Part shown: positions 26,556 through 33,317 of the stretch, piece after piece | How the letters are laid out: each line of letters opens with the position of its first letter | Numbering within the stretch: the stretch's first letter is position 1 | IMG/VR virus record: IMGVR_UViG_3300043410_001140 | Coordinates: 1 to 61,423 of that record | Source of the DNA: a virus | Taxonomy: Duplodnaviria > Caudoviricetes | DNA: 61,423 nt | Strand: one strand, 5' to 3' | The notes under the pieces: generated by a model | What the model saw: the letters and a program-made list of their open reading frames with translations, nothing else | Database searches by the model: none | Told to the model about the DNA's origin: nothing | Program-made: the position numbers and the translations under genes

Positions 26556-29500
26556 ATGCCAACATTAGCCCAACTTCGGGAAATTGTCCCCGGCTCAGAA
26601 AACATGTCGGATGCACAGCTCATCCAAAACGTAGCTGAAACTGCAAACCTAGACCCTGTAACTGTTGCGCAAAAGTTTGGCTTCAATCATTCTGATAGCG
26701 GGATCACTGGCCAACAGTTTTCATCATCACTTGATCGCTACCAAGCGGGTTTGTATGGAGTTGGTGAAGCTGCTGCGAATGCTGCGGGAGCGACTGGTGT
26801 TGGTGGTTGGCTGTCCGAGCAACGCAAAGAAAACGAACTGCGGGCTGATGTTTCAGCTGCAAAAGCCAAATCACTTGGCGCTGTCGATGAATGGAAAGAC
26901 GTTCACGGCCTGAAAGATTTTGGTAGCTACGCTAAAGGCTTGGCTGTCCAATCTGCTCCATACGCTGCTGAAGCTCTTGCTGGCGGTATGCTGGCTCGTG
27001 GCGCTATGGGCGGTACTCGTGCTGCACTTGCTGCGGCTGAAGCGTCCAACGACGTTAAAGGTATTGCTGACGCCAAACGCGCGCTGGACATTGGCTCTAC
27101 TTTGGGTGGCACTGCTGCCTCATACCCTTCGTCCGTTGGCGACATTCTTGGCAACCAGCGCGAGCAAAATGGTCAAACAAACCTTGGGGCTGCAGCTGCC
27201 TTGGGTGTTCCATATGCTGCGTTGAACGCGCTTGGTGAAACTGGTATGTTGACTCGTGGCCACTTGCCACGTAACCCAATCAGCATGCTGGACAATGTGA
27301 ACGGCCTCAAAGGCATGGCTGCTCGCACGGCTGCTGCTGGCGGTAAAACAGCCCTTGAAGAATCATTGGGCGAAACGGGCCAAGAAGTCGTTAACCAGCT
27401 CGGGCGCATGGCGGTTGACCCCAACGCTACGCTGACAGACCCACAAGCGCTGGAACGCTACAAAGAATCTGCCATTGGCGGCGCGACTCTGGGTGGTTTA
27501 ATGGGCGGTGGCCTTGGTGGCTGGCGCCGTTCGGGTAGCATTTTGCCTGACGCAACCCCCGGTACTCCCGCTCCTGACCAGCCAGTATCGACCAACGATA
27601 TTGCGCAAGCATTCAATGCTAATACTGACACAACTCCTGACGCCATCATCACTGGACTCCTTGGTCGAGCGGCTGATCCTCTTGCTGGGCGCTCTACTTT
27701 GGTTGGCCAAGGTGCATCAGATCAAACCCAAATACCTGCTGTCGCGGGCGGGACAACTGACGTTGCGGTTCAAGCGCAACAAGCACAAGCAGAACAACAG
27801 CAAGTTCAACAAGCCCAGCAACAACAAGTAGCTCGTGAGCAAACTTTCGAGCGTTTGGGCGCTACATACAACCCACAAGGCAACGGTGAGCTCAACATTT
27901 TTGGCCAAGCTGTCCTTGGTCATCAACAAATCAACCAGTTTGGCAACTTAGTCGCTGCTCAAATCTCGCAGTTGCCCGCACAGGCGCACGCCATTACTGA
28001 CGCGATTGTCCAAGCCAACCAAGAAACTGGCGGTAAACTGGTTTCGTTCAAATACAACGGCCAACCAATCTCTGGCGCTAAAGCCTTGATGAATGCGTTC
28101 GCCAAAGTGGCTACCAAGTTTCAGATTGGCCATGTTGCTTCGCCTGAAGAAGCCGCCGCTAACTTGGAAAAACTTTCTACAACCGTTTCTGGTACTCAGC
28201 TTGAGCAGTTGAATGCCATTTACCAAGCCTTAACAGGCAAAGATACATCCGGCTACATTGCCGAACAACAGTCCAAAGCAGCTAAAGAAGGAGCTAAAAA
28301 TGGAACAAAGCAAAACAATGCCGGGATTCGAGAAGTACCAGTCCAAGGCGGAACAACTGAAACAGGCGGAGCAGGAGCTGGGTCTGTACGACCCGCTGAA
28401 GTACAACCCGTCGGAGCAGGAAGTGTCGGAGCGGGATCGCTTGGCCTCCAAGTTGGACAGCCGACAACAAGCGGAGTACGGACAGGAACCAGTCCGAGTG
28501 GAAATTCTGCCGTATCCGAGTCTGGTGGGACGGGGCAAGGGACGGGGCAAGTAAATGAGCAAGCCACCCAAAACGGTGTGGGCGGGGGGCAAGTATCCGG
28601 TCAACCTGAACAAGCCAGCCAAGCCAACGTGGATCAGCAAACTGTTCGAAATGGCCCGCGCGTCTACCCAGTCCCACCCCAATACTACGCAACCGACCTC
28701 AGCCACATCCAAAGCGAACGCCGAGCAGAAATCCTAAATCAGCTCTTTACCACTGCGTTGCGCCCGCTGCAAGAGCGTAGCAATACGGTCTCCGCCGAAG
28801 TTCGTGCTGAAATCATGCGCCTTGCGTTGAATGAGCAATACTCACGAGACGACATTGCTGAGCTCACTGGGCTCAATGTGAAGACTGTTGAAAAGCAGTT
28901 GGAACGCATGCACATCAAACTGGTTAAAGTAAATTCTGAACATTCAGAATACCAAGTGACTGACCCCGCCATTGCCGTGGCCGTGGCCAACGCTGCCCAA
29001 GATTTCCGTTCACCTGAGTTTCCCGATGGGCTTGGCGAAGCAGAACTGACTGCTTTGTACCTCTCGCGCTACGAAGGCGAAGAAACTGGTACGCATGCGC
29101 TGGCAGACGAGCTGCAACAAGAAGGCAAACCAGAAGCCAAACTTGCCGAAGAAATTCATGGCAAAGAAAACGGTGCTGCCAAGTCAATGGGCATCGTGGA
29201 AAAAGGCGGAAGTCAGGGCGCAGTCGAAGCTTTGGCAACAAGCACATTTGATCGCGTGGAAAAACTCCAAGCGCAGTTGGATACACTGCCAGAGAAAGAC
29301 CCACGCCGCGCCAAGCTGGCCAAAGATATCGAAGCCCAATGGGCTGCTTACGCCAAACGCCAAACCAAGTGGGCAACCACTGGCGAAATTGAAGTCACAC
29401 CTACCGAAGAAGGAGAGACCAATGCCGTTCAAGAGCAAAGCGCAAATGAGGGAAATGTTCGCAAACCAGCCCGAGGTGGCAAAAAGGTGGGCGAAGGAAA

Positions 29501-32500
29501 CGCCAAACGCGAAAAGCCTGCCCGAAAAACTGAGCAAGCCAAAACCGAAGTCAACGCCAACGAAGCCGCGCCGGAAGTAAAAACTCCTGAAGAACAATGG
29601 GCTGCTCTTGCAAAAGAGTTTCCGCCCATGGGCAAGTATGCTGATCTCAGCACCGAAACAAAAACCAAGTGGGATGATCTGGCGCACCGTGGCGTTGCCA
29701 ATTTGGCTGCTGCTACCAAACTGCTGGAAAACCCCCTCGCAAGCCAAAGCACTCCGTTCGAGTCACTTTTGGAATTTGACGATCTGGCCTCCCATGTTGG
29801 TGGGCTAGACCTTGTGCGTGAACAGTTTGGCGAAGCTGGTATTGGCGATGCAGTTGATTTGGTTTCTGACTGGGAACTGACTAACGACAAGTCTGAAGGT
29901 GCTGCCCACGGTTCGCTGCGTGTGGTTCAAGGCCGCTACGTTGGCATGTTGAACATTGCCAAGCTGACAAATGCAGGCTACGCCGCTGAAACAGCGCGCC
30001 ACGAATTGGCTCATGCGATTGATATGGCTCCCCACGGCGGGATTTACTCTGCGCAACCAGAGATGGGTGTGGCTGTCGTCAATGGAACGATCACTCCAGA
30101 AGGCCCTGTGGCCAAAGAGTTGTTCAACTTGTACAAAACTGATGAACAATGGGGCAAATTCCTTGCGTACCCATTCGACACGGCTAAACATGCTGACCTG
30201 AACAACCGCACCAAAGTTCAAGTGGAATTGTTCGCGCAAGCGTTCTCTGTTTACACTACCCCCGAAGGCCGCGCTCGTATGGAGAAAGAAGCTCCAGTTA
30301 CGGCTGCATACTTTAAAGAGGTCATCCAAGATGTCAAATCTGCAAAACCGCTTCAAATCCAAAAGGCAGAAACTGCAGCACGCCGCGCCGCAGTTCTCCA
30401 CACTCGACGTGAATCCAAAGGCAATCGAGGCCCGTCTAAATTTCTTAGCTTCGACCAAAGAGTCGACGAGCTCGTCCTCAACAGCAAAAGCCAACAGTTC
30501 GAAGCAAGCAAGCCAGTAGGCCCATTCTCCAAAGCTGGTTCAGTCTTGGACGAGTTGCTGACTCGCCCGAAAGAGGCTTTGCACAAACTCAAACTCGGGT
30601 TCTTGACCCTTGAGCAGTTGGCCGAGTTGGACAAATCCGAAGCACAAGTCGTTCGCAAATACGCCGATGTGTCTACTGCGATGCAGATGATGTCCAAACG
30701 TTCTGTGGAAAAGGCCGCTCAGATCGACCAGCTGTGGGCTAAGTTGGATGCATCCACCTCTAAGGCGTTGTCCAATGTGATGCGCGCCGCCACTCGTATC
30801 GGGTTTGATCCTGATGTCGAAGACGCGAAAACACTGCCACAAAGCAAAGTCACACCTGAGCTGCTTGCGCTGGTCAATGACTACGAGAAGCTGCCAAACG
30901 CCGCCAAGAACGTGTACCGCCGTGTGCGCGACCACTACGCTGCCAACTATGAAGAACGCAAGTCCATCATGGAAGAAGTCGGCGCCAAGCTGGGCGGCAA
31001 AGCTCTTGAAGAAATCAAGGCGATGTACTCCAAGGTCAAAGGGCCTTACTTCCCGCTGGGTCGTACGGGTAAATACTATGCCGTTGGTATGTCTGCCCGA
31101 GTTGCTGAGTTGATGGACAAACGCGAAGCCGGTGAACTTGACCGTAAAGAAGCCGCCGAGCTGGCCAAATTGCGCCGCAACCCAACACAATACCGCACAA
31201 GTTCTTTCTCAACATTGGCCGAAGCCAAGAAAGCCGCCGAACAGTTTAAGAACCAACTGGGCTATGGCTACCACAATGAAGTCAAAGAGCGCTTGTCCAA
31301 TGCAGCGGCTTCGTTGCCAAACTTTGCCAAGATCGAAGAATATGTGAACTCACAGCTGGGTACTGACGTGCGCGATGAAGTTCGCAACATGTTGACTCAG
31401 ATGATGTTTGACATGCAGCCAGAACACAGTGCCTTGAAACGCCAGATGAAACGCGAAGGTATCTATGGCGAAAACGAAGATATGCGTCAGGTGTTTGCTC
31501 AGACTGCGATCAGCCAAGCACACTACATCAGCCGCCTGAAGTTTGGTGAAGTTTTGAATCAAGCCATGGCTGCCGTTGGCCGTGTGGCTCGTCGTGACAT
31601 TGAAATGCGCCAGATCGAAAACGAGCTGACCATGCGCACCAAGATTTCGATGGACAACACACAAAGCGCTCTGATTGATTCATTGGTCAACGCCAGCTAC
31701 TTTGCCCACCTTGGCTTGTCTCCAGCATTCTTGCTGACCAACTTGACGCAGGTTCCGATGATTACCGCCCCATGGCTGGGCGCTCGTCATGGTTTCGGCG
31801 CGACCAAACGTGCAATGGCTGCTGCGGTGGCTGACACGGCCAAGATCATCAAAACCACTTACGAAGGCGGCGATTGGCGCAGCGAGTTGAACTGGAATTC
31901 CATGTTCGCCGATGGCTCCAATGAAGACCGCATGTTCCGTGAGCTGCTTGACCGCAATGTGCTGGACATTACCATGGAGCATGATTTGGCTGCCGTTGCG
32001 TCTGCCAACCGTGGGTTCTTCGATGACAAGATTGCCTCAGCGTCTAAGGGAAAACTCCAAGGAATGAGCGATGTGGTTCGTCTGGTCAATACGCCTGTGC
32101 GTATCACTGAATTGGCCAACCGCGCCGTGACCGCTTTGTCTGCGTACCGTCTGAAGATGGAAGCCTTGGCTTCGGCTGACATGACACCAGAAGCAAAACA
32201 CACTGCTGCTGTGAACTACGCCGCGCGCGCCGTGTCTGAGACTCAGCTGAACTATTCTGAACTGAATGCCCCACGCCACATGCGTCAGCTCTTTGGCTCT
32301 AAGCCACTGGCCAAAATGGTGTTCCAGTTCCGCAAATATCAACAAGGCATGATGTACTTGGTTGCCAAGAACATTGCTGATGCGCTGCCCAATAGCAAAG
32401 CGTCCGCCGAAGACAAACGTATCGCCCGTAGAACGATTGCGGGTCTGTACGCAACGACTGGTCTGCTGGCTGGTACAACTGGCATGCCTTTGATGGGCAC

Positions 32501-33317
32501 AGTGGGTGTGGCTGGGATTGCAAACCTGATCGCTGCTGCGTTCGGTGAACCTGATGAGCCTTGGGATTTTGAAACTGAGTACCGCAACTTCTTGACTGAC
32601 TGGCTTGGCCACGACATGGCGTTGCTGGTTGCTAAGGGTTTACCCGCAGCTTTGGGTGCTGATGTGTCCAAACGAGTTGGCATGGCTGACATTGCCAATC
32701 CAATTCCATTCGTGCAGCGCGGCAACACTGGTTCTTCTACTGTGGCCAATACGATCTACGCTGGACTTGGCGCGCCTGCAGGCATGATAGGTACGATGTA
32801 CGACGGCCTCGTTGACTTGGCCAACGGTAATGGCCTCAAAGGAATCGAGAAATTGGTTCCCGTCAAAGAGCTCAAGGACGCACTGCGTACGTACCGCTAC
32901 TCCACTGAAGGGCTGACCGACAAGCGCGGAAATGTGGTGTTGCCACCTGAAAAATTTGATGCGTGGGATTTGTCTCTGCGTGGTATGGGCTTTACGCCAA
33001 CCATTGAGTCAGAGTATTACGCCGCGAATGCGGCTATGCAGAACGCGAAACAAGCTGCCACTGATGTGCGCAATGGACTGCTGGCTCGATACGCCCAAGC
33101 TAAAGTTGCTGGCGAAGACACAAGCGAGATTTCGCAAAAAGTTTCGGAGTTTAATGACCGCCACCCCGAACAAGGCGTACGTATTACTATGTCTAATTTG
33201 CTTCAAGCTACCCAAGCTCGACGTAAAATGGGCGCCGAAAGAACAAGTGCTGGCTTGCGTGTCGGCAAGGCTCAAAAACCATTTGCAGGCGAAGCTCGTT
33301 TCGCTGAAACAGAATAA
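26556..33317 (+). CDS. Large internal virion/ejection protein (polyvalent-like: HTH, zincin HExxH, PLxRFG-like)
   Basis: 2253 aa; YSRDDIAELTGLNVKTVEKQL; RHELAHAID...ELFAQ; YFPLGRTG. Confidence 0.82.
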   Translation: MPTLAQLREIVPGSENMSDAQLIQNVAETANLDPVTVAQKFGFNHSDSGITGQQFSSSLDRYQAGLYGVGEAAANAAGATGVGGWLSEQRKENELRADVSAAKAKSLGAVDEWKDVHGLKDFGSYAKGLAVQSAPYAAEALAGGMLARGAMGGTRAALAAAEASNDVKGIADAKRALDIGSTLGGTAASYPSSVGDILGNQREQNGQTNLGAAAALGVPYAALNALGETGMLTRGHLPRNPISMLDNVNGLKGMAARTAAAGGKTALEESLGETGQEVVNQLGRMAVDPNATLTDPQALERYKESAIGGATLGGLMGGGLGGWRRSGSILPDATPGTPAPDQPVSTNDIAQAFNANTDTTPDAIITGLLGRAADPLAGRSTLVGQGASDQTQIPAVAGGTTDVAVQAQQAQAEQQQVQQAQQQQVAREQTFERLGATYNPQGNGELNIFGQAVLGHQQINQFGNLVAAQISQLPAQAHAITDAIVQANQETGGKLVSFKYNGQPISGAKALMNAFAKVATKFQIGHVASPEEAAANLEKLSTTVSGTQLEQLNAIYQALTGKDTSGYIAEQQSKAAKEGAKNGTKQNNAGIREVPVQGGTTETGGAGAGSVRPAEVQPVGAGSVGAGSLGLQVGQPTTSGVRTGTSPSGNSAVSESGGTGQGTGQVNEQATQNGVGGGQVSGQPEQASQANVDQQTVRNGPRVYPVPPQYYATDLSHIQSERRAEILNQLFTTALRPLQERSNTVSAEVRAEIMRLALNEQYSRDDIAELTGLNVKTVEKQLERMHIKLVKVNSEHSEYQVTDPAIAVAVANAAQDFRSPEFPDGLGEAELTALYLSRYEGEETGTHALADELQQEGKPEAKLAEEIHGKENGAAKSMGIVEKGGSQGAVEALATSTFDRVEKLQAQLDTLPEKDPRRAKLAKDIEAQWAAYAKRQTKWATTGEIEVTPTEEGETNAVQEQSANEGNVRKPARGGKKVGEGNAKREKPARKTEQAKTEVNANEAAPEVKTPEEQWAALAKEFPPMGKYADLSTETKTKWDDLAHRGVANLAAATKLLENPLASQSTPFESLLEFDDLASHVGGLDLVREQFGEAGIGDAVDLVSDWELTNDKSEGAAHGSLRVVQGRYVGMLNIAKLTNAGYAAETARHELAHAIDMAPHGGIYSAQPEMGVAVVNGTITPEGPVAKELFNLYKTDEQWGKFLAYPFDTAKHADLNNRTKVQVELFAQAFSVYTTPEGRARMEKEAPVTAAYFKEVIQDVKSAKPLQIQKAETAARRAAVLHTRRESKGNRGPSKFLSFDQRVDELVLNSKSQQFEASKPVGPFSKAGSVLDELLTRPKEALHKLKLGFLTLEQLAELDKSEAQVVRKYADVSTAMQMMSKRSVEKAAQIDQLWAKLDASTSKALSNVMRAATRIGFDPDVEDAKTLPQSKVTPELLALVNDYEKLPNAAKNVYRRVRDHYAANYEERKSIMEEVGAKLGGKALEEIKAMYSKVKGPYFPLGRTGKYYAVGMSARVAELMDKREAGELDRKEAAELAKLRRNPTQYRTSSFSTLAEAKKAAEQFKNQLGYGYHNEVKERLSNAAASLPNFAKIEEYVNSQLGTDVRDEVRNMLTQMMFDMQPEHSALKRQMKREGIYGENEDMRQVFAQTAISQAHYISRLKFGEVLNQAMAAVGRVARRDIEMRQIENELTMRTKISMDNTQSALIDSLVNASYFAHLGLSPAFLLTNLTQVPMITAPWLGARHGFGATKRAMAAAVADTAKIIKTTYEGGDWRSELNWNSMFADGSNEDRMFRELLDRNVLDITMEHDLAAVASANRGFFDDKIASASKGKLQGMSDVVRLVNTPVRITELANRAVTALSAYRLKMEALASADMTPEAKHTAAVNYAARAVSETQLNYSELNAPRHMRQLFGSKPLAKMVFQFRKYQQGMMYLVAKNIADALPNSKASAEDKRIARRTIAGLYATTGLLAGTTGMPLMGTVGVAGIANLIAAAFGEPDEPWDFETEYRNFLTDWLGHDMALLVAKGLPAALGADVSKRVGMADIANPIPFVQRGNTGSSTVANTIYAGLGAPAGMIGTMYDGLVDLANGNGLKGIEKLVPVKELKDALRTYRYSTEGLTDKRGNVVLPPEKFDAWDLSLRGMGFTPTIESEYYAANAAMQNAKQAATDVRNGLLARYAQAKVAGEDTSEISQKVSEFNDRHPEQGVRITMSNLLQATQARRKMGAERTSAGLRVGKAQKPFAGEARFAETE
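28300..28554 (+). CDS. Nested +1-frame ORF A (84 aa)
   Basis: AAGGAG SD 6 nt before ATG; globular-like composition. Confidence 0.5.
   Translation: MEQSKTMPGFEKYQSKAEQLKQAEQELGLYDPLKYNPSEQEVSERDRLASKLDSRQQAEYGQEPVRVEILPYPSLVGRGKGRGK
28555..28737 (+). CDS. Nested +1-frame ORF B (60 aa)
   Basis: ATG immediately after the TAA of ORF A. Confidence 0.35.
   Translation: MSKPPKTVWAGGKYPVNLNKPAKPTWISKLFEMARASTQSHPNTTQPTSATSKANAEQKS
29422..29580 (+). CDS. Nested +1-frame ORF C (52 aa, MPFKSKAQ-type basic protein)
   Basis: AAGGAG SD; MPFKSKAQMREMFANQPEVAKRWAKETP resembles stand-alone small phage proteins (recollection). Confidence 0.6.
   Translation: MPFKSKAQMREMFANQPEVAKRWAKETPNAKSLPEKLSKPKPKSTPTKPRRK
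30331..30519 (+). CDS. Nested +1-frame ORF D (62 aa)
   Basis: GAGGT upstream of ATG; same frame as A-C. Confidence 0.3.
   Translation: MSNLQNRFKSKRQKLQHAAPQFSTLDVNPKAIEARLNFLASTKESTSSSSTAKANSSKQASQ

What the first reader, a model, noticed from the sequence alone, without database searches (positions are those of the whole stretch)
28288..30519. Up to four +1-frame genes nested inside the 2253-aa ejection protein gene
Seen: ORFs 28300-28554 (AAGGAG SD), 28555-28737 (TAA-ATG abutting), 29422-29580 (AAGGAG SD) and 30331-30519 (GAGGT) are all +1 relative to 26556. Over ORFs A-C the main frame becomes G/V/R/Q/E-rich linker-like sequence, while the +1 frame reads like ordinary protein (e.g. FEKYQSKAEQLKQAEQELGLYDPLKY). 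ORF C (MPFKSKAQMREMFANQPEVAKRWAKETP) resembles a small basic protein I recall as a stand-alone gene in other phages (unverified). Inference: either real dual coding, or the giant gene grew by out-of-frame read-through of small genes that now act as linkers. Standard gene callers would miss both.
Basis: partly seen in the sequence, partly recalled or inferred. Interest (0 to 1): 0.78.

Follow-up and report, generated by a model that had tools for sequence, protein, structure and literature searches.

The report
Hidden genes inside giant phage gene
Four small protein genes are written one base out of step inside a phage's 2,253-codon virion-protein gene, and dozens of related phages preserve them, so ordinary gene annotation is missing real proteins here.

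Summary
Confirmed. ORF length alone is unremarkable (the +1 frame has many 75-176-codon open runs). The evidence is comparative. Against 40 other distinct giant genes from uncultured phages, 31 of 437 windows lose the normal codon-position pattern; 30 of them lie over ORF A plus the 5' part of B, or over ORF C. Substitution tests show purifying selection on the small frames (A 0.50, C 0.34-0.47, B first half 0.31, D first 40 codons 0.55; seven control +1 stretches 0.88-1.00). They show none on the giant frame's amino acids over A and C, although that frame stays open in every relative. ORF C belongs to a large family (MPFKSKAQ...) that is free-standing in other phages, nested (+1) in giant genes with no BLAST similarity to this one, or fused to the N-terminus of other proteins. 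ORF D always trails a zincin-like module (complex prediction: weak support only). No expression data exist. This scan has noted the same thing on other DNA; my literature searches found no paper on it.

The parts
26556..33317 (+). Giant host gene, 2253 codons. It is a polyvalent virion/ejection-type protein and the last gene of the tail-fibre and internal-virion-protein block.
   Evidence: ORF, translation. Pfam LPD39 at 67.2 bits (cut-off 27). PHROG DarB-like and giant C-terminal families, E 8e-62 to 6e-64. About 25% identity over aa 1333-2250 to PLxRFG/DarB-like proteins of ~60-kb podophages. Upstream genes are tail fibres, internal virion protein phrog_511 and a virion structural protein.
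28288..28293 (+). Shine-Dalgarno AAGGAG of ORF A, 6 nt before the ATG
   Evidence: Sequence. GGAG/GAGG lies at -17..-4 in 24 of 29 distinct upstream contexts of ORF A homologues, against 214 of 2721 (7.9%) of all +1-frame ATGs in 39 giant ORFs.
28300..28554 (+). ORF A, 84 codons, +1 frame. An acidic, helix-poor small protein with a basic tail.
   Evidence: Homologues are nested in the +1 frame in 45 of 46 viral loci; the 46th is cut by the contig end. The stop is TAA in 37 of 37. Small-frame NN/NS is 0.50-0.51 [0.40-0.65] and giant-frame NN/SN 1.19-1.33. Only the small and giant frames are open in 37 of 37; the other four frames are open in 2-6 of 37.
28555..28737 (+). ORF B, 60 codons, +1 frame. 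Its ATG abuts the TAA of ORF A. The N-terminal half is conserved; the 3' half overlaps the start of a constrained giant-frame domain.
   Evidence: Homologues in 31 loci by tblastn. By motif it is present in 14 of the 40 other distinct giants; the regex missed the window's own copy, which the broadened regex counts (n = 15). First half: small-frame NN/NS 0.31 [0.14-0.62], giant 0.93. Second half: small 0.49 [0.20-1.18], giant 0.22.
28791..28907 (+). Giant frame: helix-turn-helix-like segment (aa 746-784) that follows the A/B linker
   Evidence: Pfam Sigma70_r4_2 E 4.9e-4 at 20.1 bits, below the cut-off of 25.7. This is a lead only.
29410..29415 (+). Shine-Dalgarno AAGGAG of ORF C, 6 nt before the ATG
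   Evidence: GGAG/GAGG is present in 21 of 37 distinct nested contexts, against a 7.9% background.
29422..29580 (+). ORF C, 52 codons, +1 frame. A member of the MPFKSKAQ small basic protein family: a two-helix hairpin plus a Lys/Pro-rich tail.
   Evidence: phrog_1375 E 4.7e-4. 69 of 81 candidate small proteins score E<=0.01. 398 relatives in viral contigs. Nested copies: NN/NS 0.34-0.43, giant 1.0. Free-standing copies: 0.31-0.35. The 5' extension 29095-29421 is at control level (0.85), so the gene starts at 29422. AF2 mean pLDDT 74.6, helices 6-15 and 17-26.
29775..30338 (+). Giant frame: zincin-like HExxH module (aa 1074-1261) that ORF D always trails
   Evidence: Alignment A7. Pfam ATLF E 5.7e-5 at 23.3 bits, below the cut-off of 27.4; all 9 members match, best 7e-7. 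The module is present in 11 of 41 giants.
30318..30322 (+). SD-like GAGGT of ORF D, 8 nt before the ATG. It also encodes the conserved K-E-V of the giant frame.
   Evidence: GAGG lies upstream of the ATG in 9 of the 11 contexts printed (L118 and L126 lack it); GGAG/GAGG in 4 of 5 distinct contexts.
30331..30519 (+). ORF D, 62 codons, +1 frame. The N-terminal ~40 residues are conserved, and it is tied to the zincin-like module.
   Evidence: All 11 zincin-like modules are followed by an ATG-led +1 ORF of 51-64 codons, and 10 of 11 are homologous. The motif sits exactly 116 aa after HExxH in 9 of 9. First 40 codons: NN/NS 0.55 [0.38-0.78], giant 0.78 [0.55-1.09]; the small frame's third position is the most variable. 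Complex prediction with the module: weak support.
30546..31040 (+). Giant frame: LPD39 domain (aa 1331-1495)
   Evidence: Pfam PF18858, E 2.1e-18.
30591..33245 (+). Giant frame: conserved C-terminal region shared with DarB-like/PLxRFG giant phage proteins
   Evidence: phrog_30335 and phrog_10089; tblastn to 31 phage records.

Best explanation
ORFs A, B and C, and probably D, are real protein-coding genes nested in the +1 frame of a giant virion-protein gene. What is shown: the giant frame is kept open through them, but over A and C its amino-acid sequence is not selected, so there it is a spacer between domains. The small frames carry the amino-acid selection, and each has a conserved ATG with an SD in most relatives. 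What is inferred: ribosomes start internally on the late mRNA at each SD+ATG. B is translationally coupled to A through the TAA-ATG junction. The products are small proteins that act with the virion or the giant protein. C is a two-helix module with a basic tail. In other phages the same module is a free-standing head-module gene or the N-terminal module of larger proteins. D is the partner of the zincin-like domain encoded just upstream of it. The most economical origin is that domain genes and the small genes between them were fused into one reading frame. That read the small genes through out of frame and left one DNA stretch serving both as linker and as gene.
For: (1) Codon-position scan of 41 distinct giant genes. 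Main-frame position 3 is the most variable except in 31 of 437 windows: 22 contiguous at 28266-28670, 8 contiguous at 29421-29570 and 1 inside D (the same result with 15 genes). (2) Overlap-aware substitution ratios. Small frame: A 0.50 [0.40-0.61], C 0.47 [0.34-0.64] (core 0.34), B first half 0.31 [0.14-0.62], D first 40 codons 0.55 [0.38-0.78]. Seven other long +1 open stretches of the same gene give 0.88-1.00. The giant frame gives 1.0-1.3 over A and C, against 0.47-0.69 elsewhere. (3) Nested C is as constrained as free-standing C (0.34-0.43 against 0.31-0.35). (4) The start is ATG in 29 of 29 (A), 37 of 37 (C) and 5 of 5 (D) distinct contexts. SD motifs are present in 24 of 29, 21 of 37 and 4 of 5, against a 7.9% background. 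A ends in TAA in 37 of 37. (5) Both frames are open in 37 of 37 (A), 15 of 15 (B), 35 of 35 (C) and 10 of 10 (D). With random synonymous codons for the small proteins, the giant frame would be open with P 0.001-0.006. (6) The C family: 69 small proteins and 398 viral loci. Among distinct sequences, 39 are nested (all +1) and 38 free-standing. It is nested in giant genes that share no tblastn hit at E<=1e-3 with this one (L001, L002, L018, L027, L030, L057, L068, L073). (7) D follows every one of 11 zincin-like modules, wherever that module sits in the giant gene (aa 1037-1679).
Against: There is no direct evidence of translation. No RNA run holds the sequence, and no ribosome profiling or proteomics was available. 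The substitution statistics are my own simplified OLGenie-like counts on strongly diverged, related sequences. The bootstrap runs over codons, not lineages. ORF A folds poorly (pLDDT 61.3). The C model has no structural match at E<=0.001. No function is assigned to any of the four. B is present in only 15 of 41 giants, and its slot holds unrelated ORFs in others. For D the antisense frame that shares its third positions is open in 9 of 10, so the codon-position evidence cannot exclude it. Its SD also encodes conserved giant-frame residues. Codon usage does not show which frame is older.
Confidence: 0.85

Rival explanations
1. The +1 ORFs are chance open frames in stop-poor linker sequence. Their apparent conservation is a by-product of selection on the giant frame or on the DNA/RNA itself.
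For: Long +1 open runs are common in this gene: mean 34.8 codons, up to 176. P(+1 open | main-frame protein) is 0.28-0.37 for A-C. Both frames share their nucleotides, so both look conserved in an alignment.
Against: Seven other long +1 runs show no +1-frame constraint (0.88-1.00), while A, B, C and D do. Over A and C the giant frame shows no amino-acid constraint. C has free-standing and in-frame-fused homologues. ATG, SD and the TAA stop are conserved.
Confidence: 0.03
2. The small frames are reached by programmed ribosomal frameshifting rather than by internal initiation. That would give truncated giant proteins with alternative C-termini, or a C-module joined by a -1 shift to the downstream part of the giant protein.
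For: The C module is the N-terminal module of many larger proteins, 100 of the 120 best longer hits. So a C-tagged downstream fragment would have precedents in architecture. The tails are A-rich.
Against: The +1 frame is closed a few codons upstream of the ATG in most relatives: median 12 codons for C, 3 for B, 4 for D. ATG and SD are conserved. An in-phase X_XXY_YYZ heptamer occurs in only 17 of 40 nested C genes, at varying places, and not at all in the window. Free-standing C genes have the same basic tail and stop.
Confidence: 0.05
3. Assembly or sequencing indels created an artificial giant ORF or artificial nested ORFs.
For: The window comes from a metagenome assembly. The two best DNA runs may be its own source.
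Against: The same two-frame arrangement recurs in 40 other distinct giant genes from many contigs and in GenBank phage genomes L001 and L002.
Confidence: 0.01
4. For ORF D only: the conserved feature is not the sense +1 ORF. It is either an antisense ORF sharing its third positions, or simply the relaxed C-terminal edge of the zincin-like module.
For: That antisense frame is open in 9 of 10. In the window, a 229-codon antisense ORF at 29805-30494 covers most of D. D's selection signal is the weakest, and its SD doubles as conserved K-E-V codons.
Against: An ATG-led +1 ORF of 51-64 codons follows 11 of 11 modules, with a stop 0-4 codons upstream of the ATG in the relatives. The rest of the antisense ORF lies over sequence with a normal giant-frame pattern. 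Complex prediction with the module gave weak support: score 0.60, best control 0.01.
Confidence: 0.12

Closest known systems
Lambda Rz/Rz1 spanin genes (embedded architecture). Source: PMC5295617, of which I read the passages found by term search.
   Same: A small gene lies entirely inside the +1 frame of a larger same-strand gene, with its own start. The paper states that the embedded Rz1 coding part lies in a ~40-codon, mutationally silent linker of Rz. That is the same division of labour seen here, where the giant frame is unconstrained over A and C.
   Different: Here there are three to four nested genes instead of one. The host is a 2253-codon virion polyvalent protein, not a lysis gene. 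None of the four products shows a hydrophobic anchor on reading their translations (read by eye, no predictor run). One nested family (C) recurs in giant genes that are not BLAST-similar to this one, and also exists free-standing.
Polyvalent proteins of phages and conjugative elements (Iyer et al. 2017, PMC5512222). I saw the search listing, the abstract start and the term-search passages.
   Same: The host gene is a multidomain giant protein with an LPD39 domain and a DarB-like C-terminal region. It is encoded in the virion module.
   Different: A term search of that paper gave 0 occurrences of 'overlapping', 'frameshift' and 'linker'. Genes nested in the spacers are not part of its description, as far as those terms show. 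Its supplementary files could not be seen.
Small free-standing phage proteins of phrog_1375 (the MPFKSKAQ family); distantly Pfam DUF3008
   Same: ORF C has the same N-terminal motif, length and basic tail. The nearest named cluster in the ESM Atlas is DUF3008, at score 0.85.
   Different: Here the gene is nested rather than free-standing. Pfam gave no DUF3008 hit at E<=1, so that link is only a lead.
Programmed-frameshift gene pairs of tailed phages, such as lambda G/GT and T7 10A/10B (recalled, no paper read)
   Same: Two proteins are produced from overlapping frames of a late structural gene.
   Different: Those share an N-terminus and need a slippery site. Here each small ORF has its own ATG and SD, and no conserved slippery heptamer was found.
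Small internal, ejected virion proteins of T7-like phages encoded next to the portal gene (gp6.7, gp7.3; recalled, not tested)
   Same: They are small and basic and are encoded in the head module. Free-standing C genes lie beside portal-like and scaffold-like genes.
   Different: No sequence or structural similarity was tested or shown. This is a functional analogy only.

Membership tests
Nested same-strand overlapping gene (Rz/Rz1-type architecture) | The small ORF lies wholly inside a larger ORF, on the same strand, in another frame | tested here: met
   all four ORFs lie inside 26556-33317 in the +1 frame.
Nested same-strand overlapping gene (Rz/Rz1-type architecture) | Own translation start (start codon with ribosome-binding site), conserved in relatives | tested here: met
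   ATG in all distinct contexts of A, C and D; B has 5 ATG and 1 GTG. SD in 24/29, 4/6, 21/37 and 4/5, against a 7.9% background.
Nested same-strand overlapping gene (Rz/Rz1-type architecture) | Both reading frames maintained by selection | tested here: met
   both frames open in 37/37, 15/15, 35/35 and 10/10; chance openness of the giant frame is 0.001-0.006; purifying selection on the small frames.
Nested same-strand overlapping gene (Rz/Rz1-type architecture) | Both products made in infected cells | not testable with these tools
   No RNA holder is listed, and no proteomics or ribosome profiling is on hand.
Two-component spanin (Rz/Rz1 family membership) | Membrane anchor in the host protein, and a lipoprotein signal with lipobox Cys in the nested protein | tested here: not met
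   I read the translations by eye. None of the four small proteins shows a hydrophobic signal segment, and the host gene is in the virion module. No predictor was run.
MPFKSKAQ small-protein family (phrog_1375) | Profile match and shared N-terminal motif, ~40-60 aa, basic tail | tested here: met
   phrog_1375 E 4.7e-4. 69 of 81 candidates at E<=0.01, up to 97% identity. Alignments A1 and A5: M1, P2, F3 and Q8 are invariant.
Pfam DUF3008 (PF11450) | Match to the Pfam model | tested here: not met
   No Pfam family for ORF C at E<=1. Only an ESM Atlas neighbour at 0.85, which that tool calls a lead.
Polyvalent protein (Iyer et al. 2017) | Several unrelated domains in one giant polypeptide of a phage, including LPD-type domains | tested here: met
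   LPD39 above the cut-off. Zincin-like module, HTH-like segment and DarB-like C-terminal region.
Programmed -1 frameshift site | Conserved in-phase slippery heptamer X_XXY_YYZ | tested here: not met
   none in the window's ORF C. Present in 17 of 40 nested copies, at differing places and with differing sequences.
M34/ATLF-like zincin (the module before ORF D) | HExxH plus a downstream Glu, and a match to the family model above its cut-off | tested here: inconclusive
   HExxH and E-L-F-A-Q are invariant in A7. Pfam ATLF scores 23.3 bits, below the 27.4 cut-off, though 9 of 9 members match at E<=1. PDB profile hits cover only positions 142-182, E 9e-5.

The most novel reading that the evidence does not exclude
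Giant ejection/polyvalent genes of a large group of aquatic phages are 'operons within a gene'. They are built from domain cassettes whose spacers are themselves small genes read one base out of step. Each small protein works with a neighbouring part of the giant protein. D would cap or chaperone the zincin-like domain it trails until ejection. The C module would be a general tag or adaptor for virion-borne proteins, used free, fused or nested. Cassettes made of a domain plus its trailing nested gene would be shuffled as units between giant genes.
Probability: 0.3. Interest if true: 0.85.

Novelty: new variant of a known kind. Interest (0 to 1): 0.75.

Why it matters
Gene callers forbid genes inside genes, so these proteins are absent from phage annotation. 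The two GenBank genomes I looked at do not list their nested ORF. If the reading is right, a widespread group of phages carries several unlisted, strongly conserved small proteins in the very gene thought to deliver effectors into the host. The 'featureless linkers' of giant phage proteins would then be coding sequence for something else. This also gives a clean natural system for studying how two proteins share one DNA stretch: one frame carries the amino-acid selection and the other only has to stay open. In all four cases a T-to-C change kills the small gene's ATG while leaving the giant frame's Asn or Asp codon synonymous, so the genes can be tested one by one. Finally, it suggests how giant polyvalent genes grow, by fusing across small intervening genes.

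Tried and rejected
Nucleotide search of the giant gene against 50,697 phage records found no match.

Pfam and NCBIfam gave nothing credible for the four small proteins.

Foldseek of the ORF C model against the PDB gave 0 matches at E<=0.001. The ORF A model was too poor to search (pLDDT 61.3).

The 161-codon version of ORF C from ATG 29095 is rejected. Its upstream part is at control level (0.85).

A conserved slippery site for frameshifting was not found.

The codon-usage test of which frame is ancestral was inconclusive, because both frames score as coding-like.

The tree of C proteins has only 40 columns, and 5 of 74 inner branches are starred. It shows that nested and free-standing copies are intermixed (7 changes; at least 2 forced by starred branches) but cannot order the events.

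tblastn of the giant protein found nothing at E<=1e-5 against 58 loci with free-standing C. It found nothing at E<=1e-3 against 8 distant nested loci. The tool was checked and works.

Neighbours of free-standing C genes mostly have no family. The hits were portal-like or head-tail adaptor, a virion structural protein, and a sub-threshold T7 scaffold match.

No RNA holder was listed among 5 sequencing runs.

Six literature searches and a term search in PMC5512222 found nothing on genes nested in giant phage virion genes.

Genomic context of the database proteins P0002-P0070 and P0191-P0202 could not be inspected. Some of them may be nested ORFs called on short contigs.

Full report
THE OBSERVATION. 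The + strand carries a 2253-codon ORF, 26556-33317. A runs 28300-28554, 84 codons, inside a stop-to-stop stretch that also has a TTG at 28258. B runs 28555-28737, 60 codons. C runs 29422-29580, 52 codons, and a longer version starts at ATG 29095. D runs 30331-30519, 62 codons. All are +1 relative to 26556. The sequence shows AAGGAG 6 nt before the ATGs of A and C. The TAA of A abuts the ATG of B. GAGGT lies 8 nt before the ATG of D. Over A and the 5' part of B the giant frame is 24% Gly plus Gln, Val, Thr and Ser. So the description is accurate.

ORF length alone means little. The +1 frame of this gene has 62 stops, a mean open run of 34.8 codons, and other runs of 103-176 codons. Given the giant-frame protein, the +1 frame would be open by chance with P 0.28-0.37 for A, B and C.

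THE HOST GENE. It closes a block of tail-fibre genes, an internal virion protein (phrog_511) and a virion structural protein. It carries an LPD39 domain above Pfam's cut-off. Its C-terminal ~900 residues match DarB-like and giant PHROG families. They share ~25% identity with PLxRFG/DarB-like proteins of ~60-kb podophages. No phage record is similar at the DNA level. The only DNA holders are freshwater and aquatic metagenome runs.

ORF C IS A KNOWN-LOOKING SMALL GENE THAT ALSO LIVES ELSEWHERE. It matches phrog_1375 (E 4.7e-4). In the large protein collection, 69 of 81 candidate small proteins score E<=0.01, with up to 97% identity over the core.

tblastn against phage genomes found the motif in Streptomyces phages, where it is an annotated free-standing gene (Vorvolakos gene 48). 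It also found the motif in Flavobacterium elemoviruses and in an uncultured podovirus. In both of those the hit is an ATG-led 42-43-codon ORF in the +1 frame of an annotated giant 'structural protein' gene, and it is not itself annotated.

A scan of viral contigs confirmed 398 relatives, of which the best 80 were kept. Over all loci held, I counted 113 such ORFs and 77 distinct protein sequences. Of these, 39 are nested in an open frame of 700 codons or more, always as +1, and 38 are free-standing. In one search no copy was spanned by a long ORF in the other sense frame.

The nested hosts include giant genes with no tblastn hit at E<=1e-3 to the window's giant protein. Two of them fall in other PHROG families of virion or internal virion proteins.

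Free-standing copies sit in head or virion modules: beside portal-like genes, after a virion structural protein, or directly after a 1373-codon gene.

The module also occurs fused in frame. 382 longer proteins score E<=1e-3, and in 100 of the 120 best it is at the extreme N-terminus. It is followed by DUF5661, a GH24 lysozyme, a SET domain or ~1000-residue proteins.

AlphaFold2 models it as a two-helix hairpin (residues 6-15 and 17-26; pLDDT 86-93 over the first 20 residues) with a disordered basic tail. Foldseek found no match.

ORFS A, B AND D IN RELATIVES. ORF A homologues were found in 46 viral loci. 45 are nested +1 in a giant frame and the 46th is cut off by its contig end. None is free-standing. 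A profile search of 1.84 billion representatives found only 12 proteins, all of 55-142 residues, so A is a narrow family.

In 37 of 37 giants that have A, it ends in TAA. In 22 of 37 another +1 ORF of 40 codons or more starts within five codons. That 'B slot' holds the window's type of B in 15 of 41 giants and at least two unrelated small-ORF families in others.

D is tied to a zincin-like HExxH module of the giant frame. The module occurs in 11 of 41 giants, at positions from aa 1037 to 1679. Every time it is followed by an ATG-led +1 ORF of 51-64 codons. 10 of 11 of these are homologous to D, and the D motif lies exactly 116 residues after HExxH in 9 of 9.

WHICH FRAME IS SELECTED. I aligned 15 and then 41 distinct giant genes by their main-frame proteins and measured nucleotide diversity at each codon position.

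Main-frame position 3 is the most variable everywhere, except in 31 of 437 fifteen-codon windows. Of those, 22 form one block at 28266-28670 (A plus the 5' part of B), 8 form one block at 29421-29570 (C), and 1 lies in D. In these blocks main-frame position 1, which is the third position of the +1 frame, is the most variable.

I then classed every site and difference by its effect in both frames, in a simplified OLGenie-type count with a bootstrap over codons.

Control regions gave +1-frame NN/NS of 0.85-0.93 and main-frame NN/SN of 0.56-0.65. Seven other long +1 open stretches of the same gene gave 0.88-1.00.

By contrast:
- A gave 0.50-0.51 [0.40-0.65], with the giant frame at 1.19-1.33.
- The core of C gave 0.34 [0.18-0.60], with the giant frame at 1.0.
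- The first half of B gave 0.31 [0.14-0.62], giant 0.93. Its second half gave 0.49, giant 0.22, so there the giant frame takes over.
- The first 40 codons of D gave 0.55 [0.38-0.78], giant 0.78.

Nested C (0.34-0.43) is as constrained as free-standing C (0.31-0.35). The stretch upstream of ATG 29422 in the long version of C is at control level, so C starts at 29422.

BOTH FRAMES ARE KEPT. Over A, the small and giant frames are open in 37 of 37 giants, while the other four frames are open in only 2-6 of 37. The figures are similar for B. For C the giant and small frames are open in 35 of 35. With random synonymous codons for the small proteins, the giant frame would stay open with P 0.001-0.006. 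Among free-standing C genes that frame is open in 17 of 48. So the giant frame is under selection to remain open, even where its amino acids are free.

STARTS. The start is ATG in every distinct context of A, C and D. GGAG or GAGG lies at -17..-4 in 24 of 29 (A), 4 of 6 (B), 21 of 37 (C) and 4 of 5 (D) contexts. The background is 214 of 2721 (7.9%) of all +1-frame ATGs in the giant genes. The +1 frame is closed a median of 12 (C), 3 (B) and 4 (D) codons upstream of the start. No conserved slippery heptamer exists, and the window has none. This argues for internal initiation rather than frameshifting.

CAVEATS. There is no expression evidence of any kind. ORF A folds poorly. For D the antisense frame that shares its third positions is open in 9 of 10, and the SD doubles as conserved giant-frame codons. 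D therefore rests mainly on its fixed position after the module, its conserved start and length, and its N-terminal motif.

The complex prediction of D with the module gave only weak support. The score was 0.60 (runs 0.85, 0.57, 0.60) and the best of 3 controls 0.01. The mark was reached by 58 of 80 solved complexes and 2 of 110 mismatched pairs. But at 0.60 or under it was reached by only 7 of those 80 and by both mismatches. The runs agree in at least 75% of contacts, and the partner's pLDDT is at least 59.

The module's likeness to the ATLF/M34 zincin family is below Pfam's cut-off. Codon usage does not show which frame is older. The C tree is too short to order events.

MECHANISM, WITH STATUS. 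Shown:
- Two frames are maintained.
- Amino-acid selection is on the small frames over A, C, the 5' part of B and the 5' part of D.
- Starts and SDs are conserved.
- C is a member of a family with free-standing and fused forms.
- D is linked to the zincin-like module.

Inferred:
- Initiation is internal, on the late mRNA.
- B is coupled to A by the TAA-ATG junction.
- The small proteins act with the virion or with parts of the giant protein.
- The origin was fusion of domain genes across small intervening genes. This is favoured for C and open for A.

COMPARISON WITH WHAT IS KNOWN. The closest architecture is lambda Rz/Rz1. There Rz1 is entirely embedded in the +1 frame of Rz, and its coding part lies in a mutationally silent linker of Rz (PMC5295617, passages read). 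The present case differs in the number of nested genes, the host gene, and the recurrence of one nested family across giant genes that are not BLAST-similar to one another. The host belongs to the polyvalent proteins of Iyer et al. (PMC5512222). A term search of that paper found no mention of overlapping or frameshifted genes. Six literature searches found nothing on this arrangement.

EARLIER NOTES OF THIS SCAN. Look-alike first-reader notes exist for three other genomes. A word search listed 145 findings in at least 140 genomes, with follow-up reports reaching similar conclusions. Some propose that a small gene trailing an enzyme domain is that domain's partner. That proposal is what led me to run the D-module complex test. 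My own co-occurrence counts were made before I read it.

VERDICT. This is real, multi-gene dual coding in a giant phage virion gene: a new variant of the known nested-gene kind. The products' functions are unknown, and translation is still to be shown.

Noticed in passing
L017, L088, L089, L090 (ORF directly after the ORF A homologue); L005 171-452, L095: The slot after ORF A holds other, unrelated small +1 ORF families in some relatives. One is shared by L017, L088, L089 and L090, and another by L005 and L095. The nested genes therefore look exchangeable like cassettes.
   Followed up: partly
L001 5605-5637: In the Flavobacterium elemovirus giant gene, a second MPFKSK start lies 396 nt upstream of the nested C gene. 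It stops after 10 codons and may be the remnant of a second copy.
   Followed up: no
P0071, P0084, P0127, P0130, P0178, P0095, P0159: The C module is the extreme N-terminus of many longer proteins (100 of the 120 best longer hits). Partners include a GH24 lysozyme, a SET-domain protein, DUF5661 proteins and ~1000-residue proteins. P0071 has a copy at each end, and P0159 has one at the C-terminus.
   Followed up: partly
window 29775-30338: The giant frame holds a zincin-like HExxH module with weak, sub-threshold likeness to the ATLF/M34 peptidase family (Pfam 23.3 bits against a cut-off of 27.4). It moves between positions aa 1037 and 1679 in different giant genes, together with ORF D.
   Followed up: partly
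window 28300-28320: Most ORF A homologues begin with a pair of cysteines two residues apart, just after the start. The window's copy lacks both (alignment A6).
   Followed up: no
window 28791-28907: Right after the A/B spacer the giant frame has a helix-turn-helix-like segment (Sigma70_r4_2, 20.1 bits, below the 25.7 cut-off). It is conserved in many relatives.
   Followed up: no
window 28230-28712 and 29805-30494, minus strand: Long antisense ORFs (160 and 229 codons, TTG starts) overlap the nested genes. Over A the antisense frames are open in only 2-6 of 37 relatives, so they are chance ORFs there. Over D one of them is open in 9 of 10.
   Followed up: partly
L066 85-4372; L081 7059-10177: In two unrelated contigs a free-standing C gene follows directly (3-8 nt) after a 979- or 1373-codon gene. 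This is what an unfused precursor, or a fission product, of the nested state would look like.
   Followed up: partly
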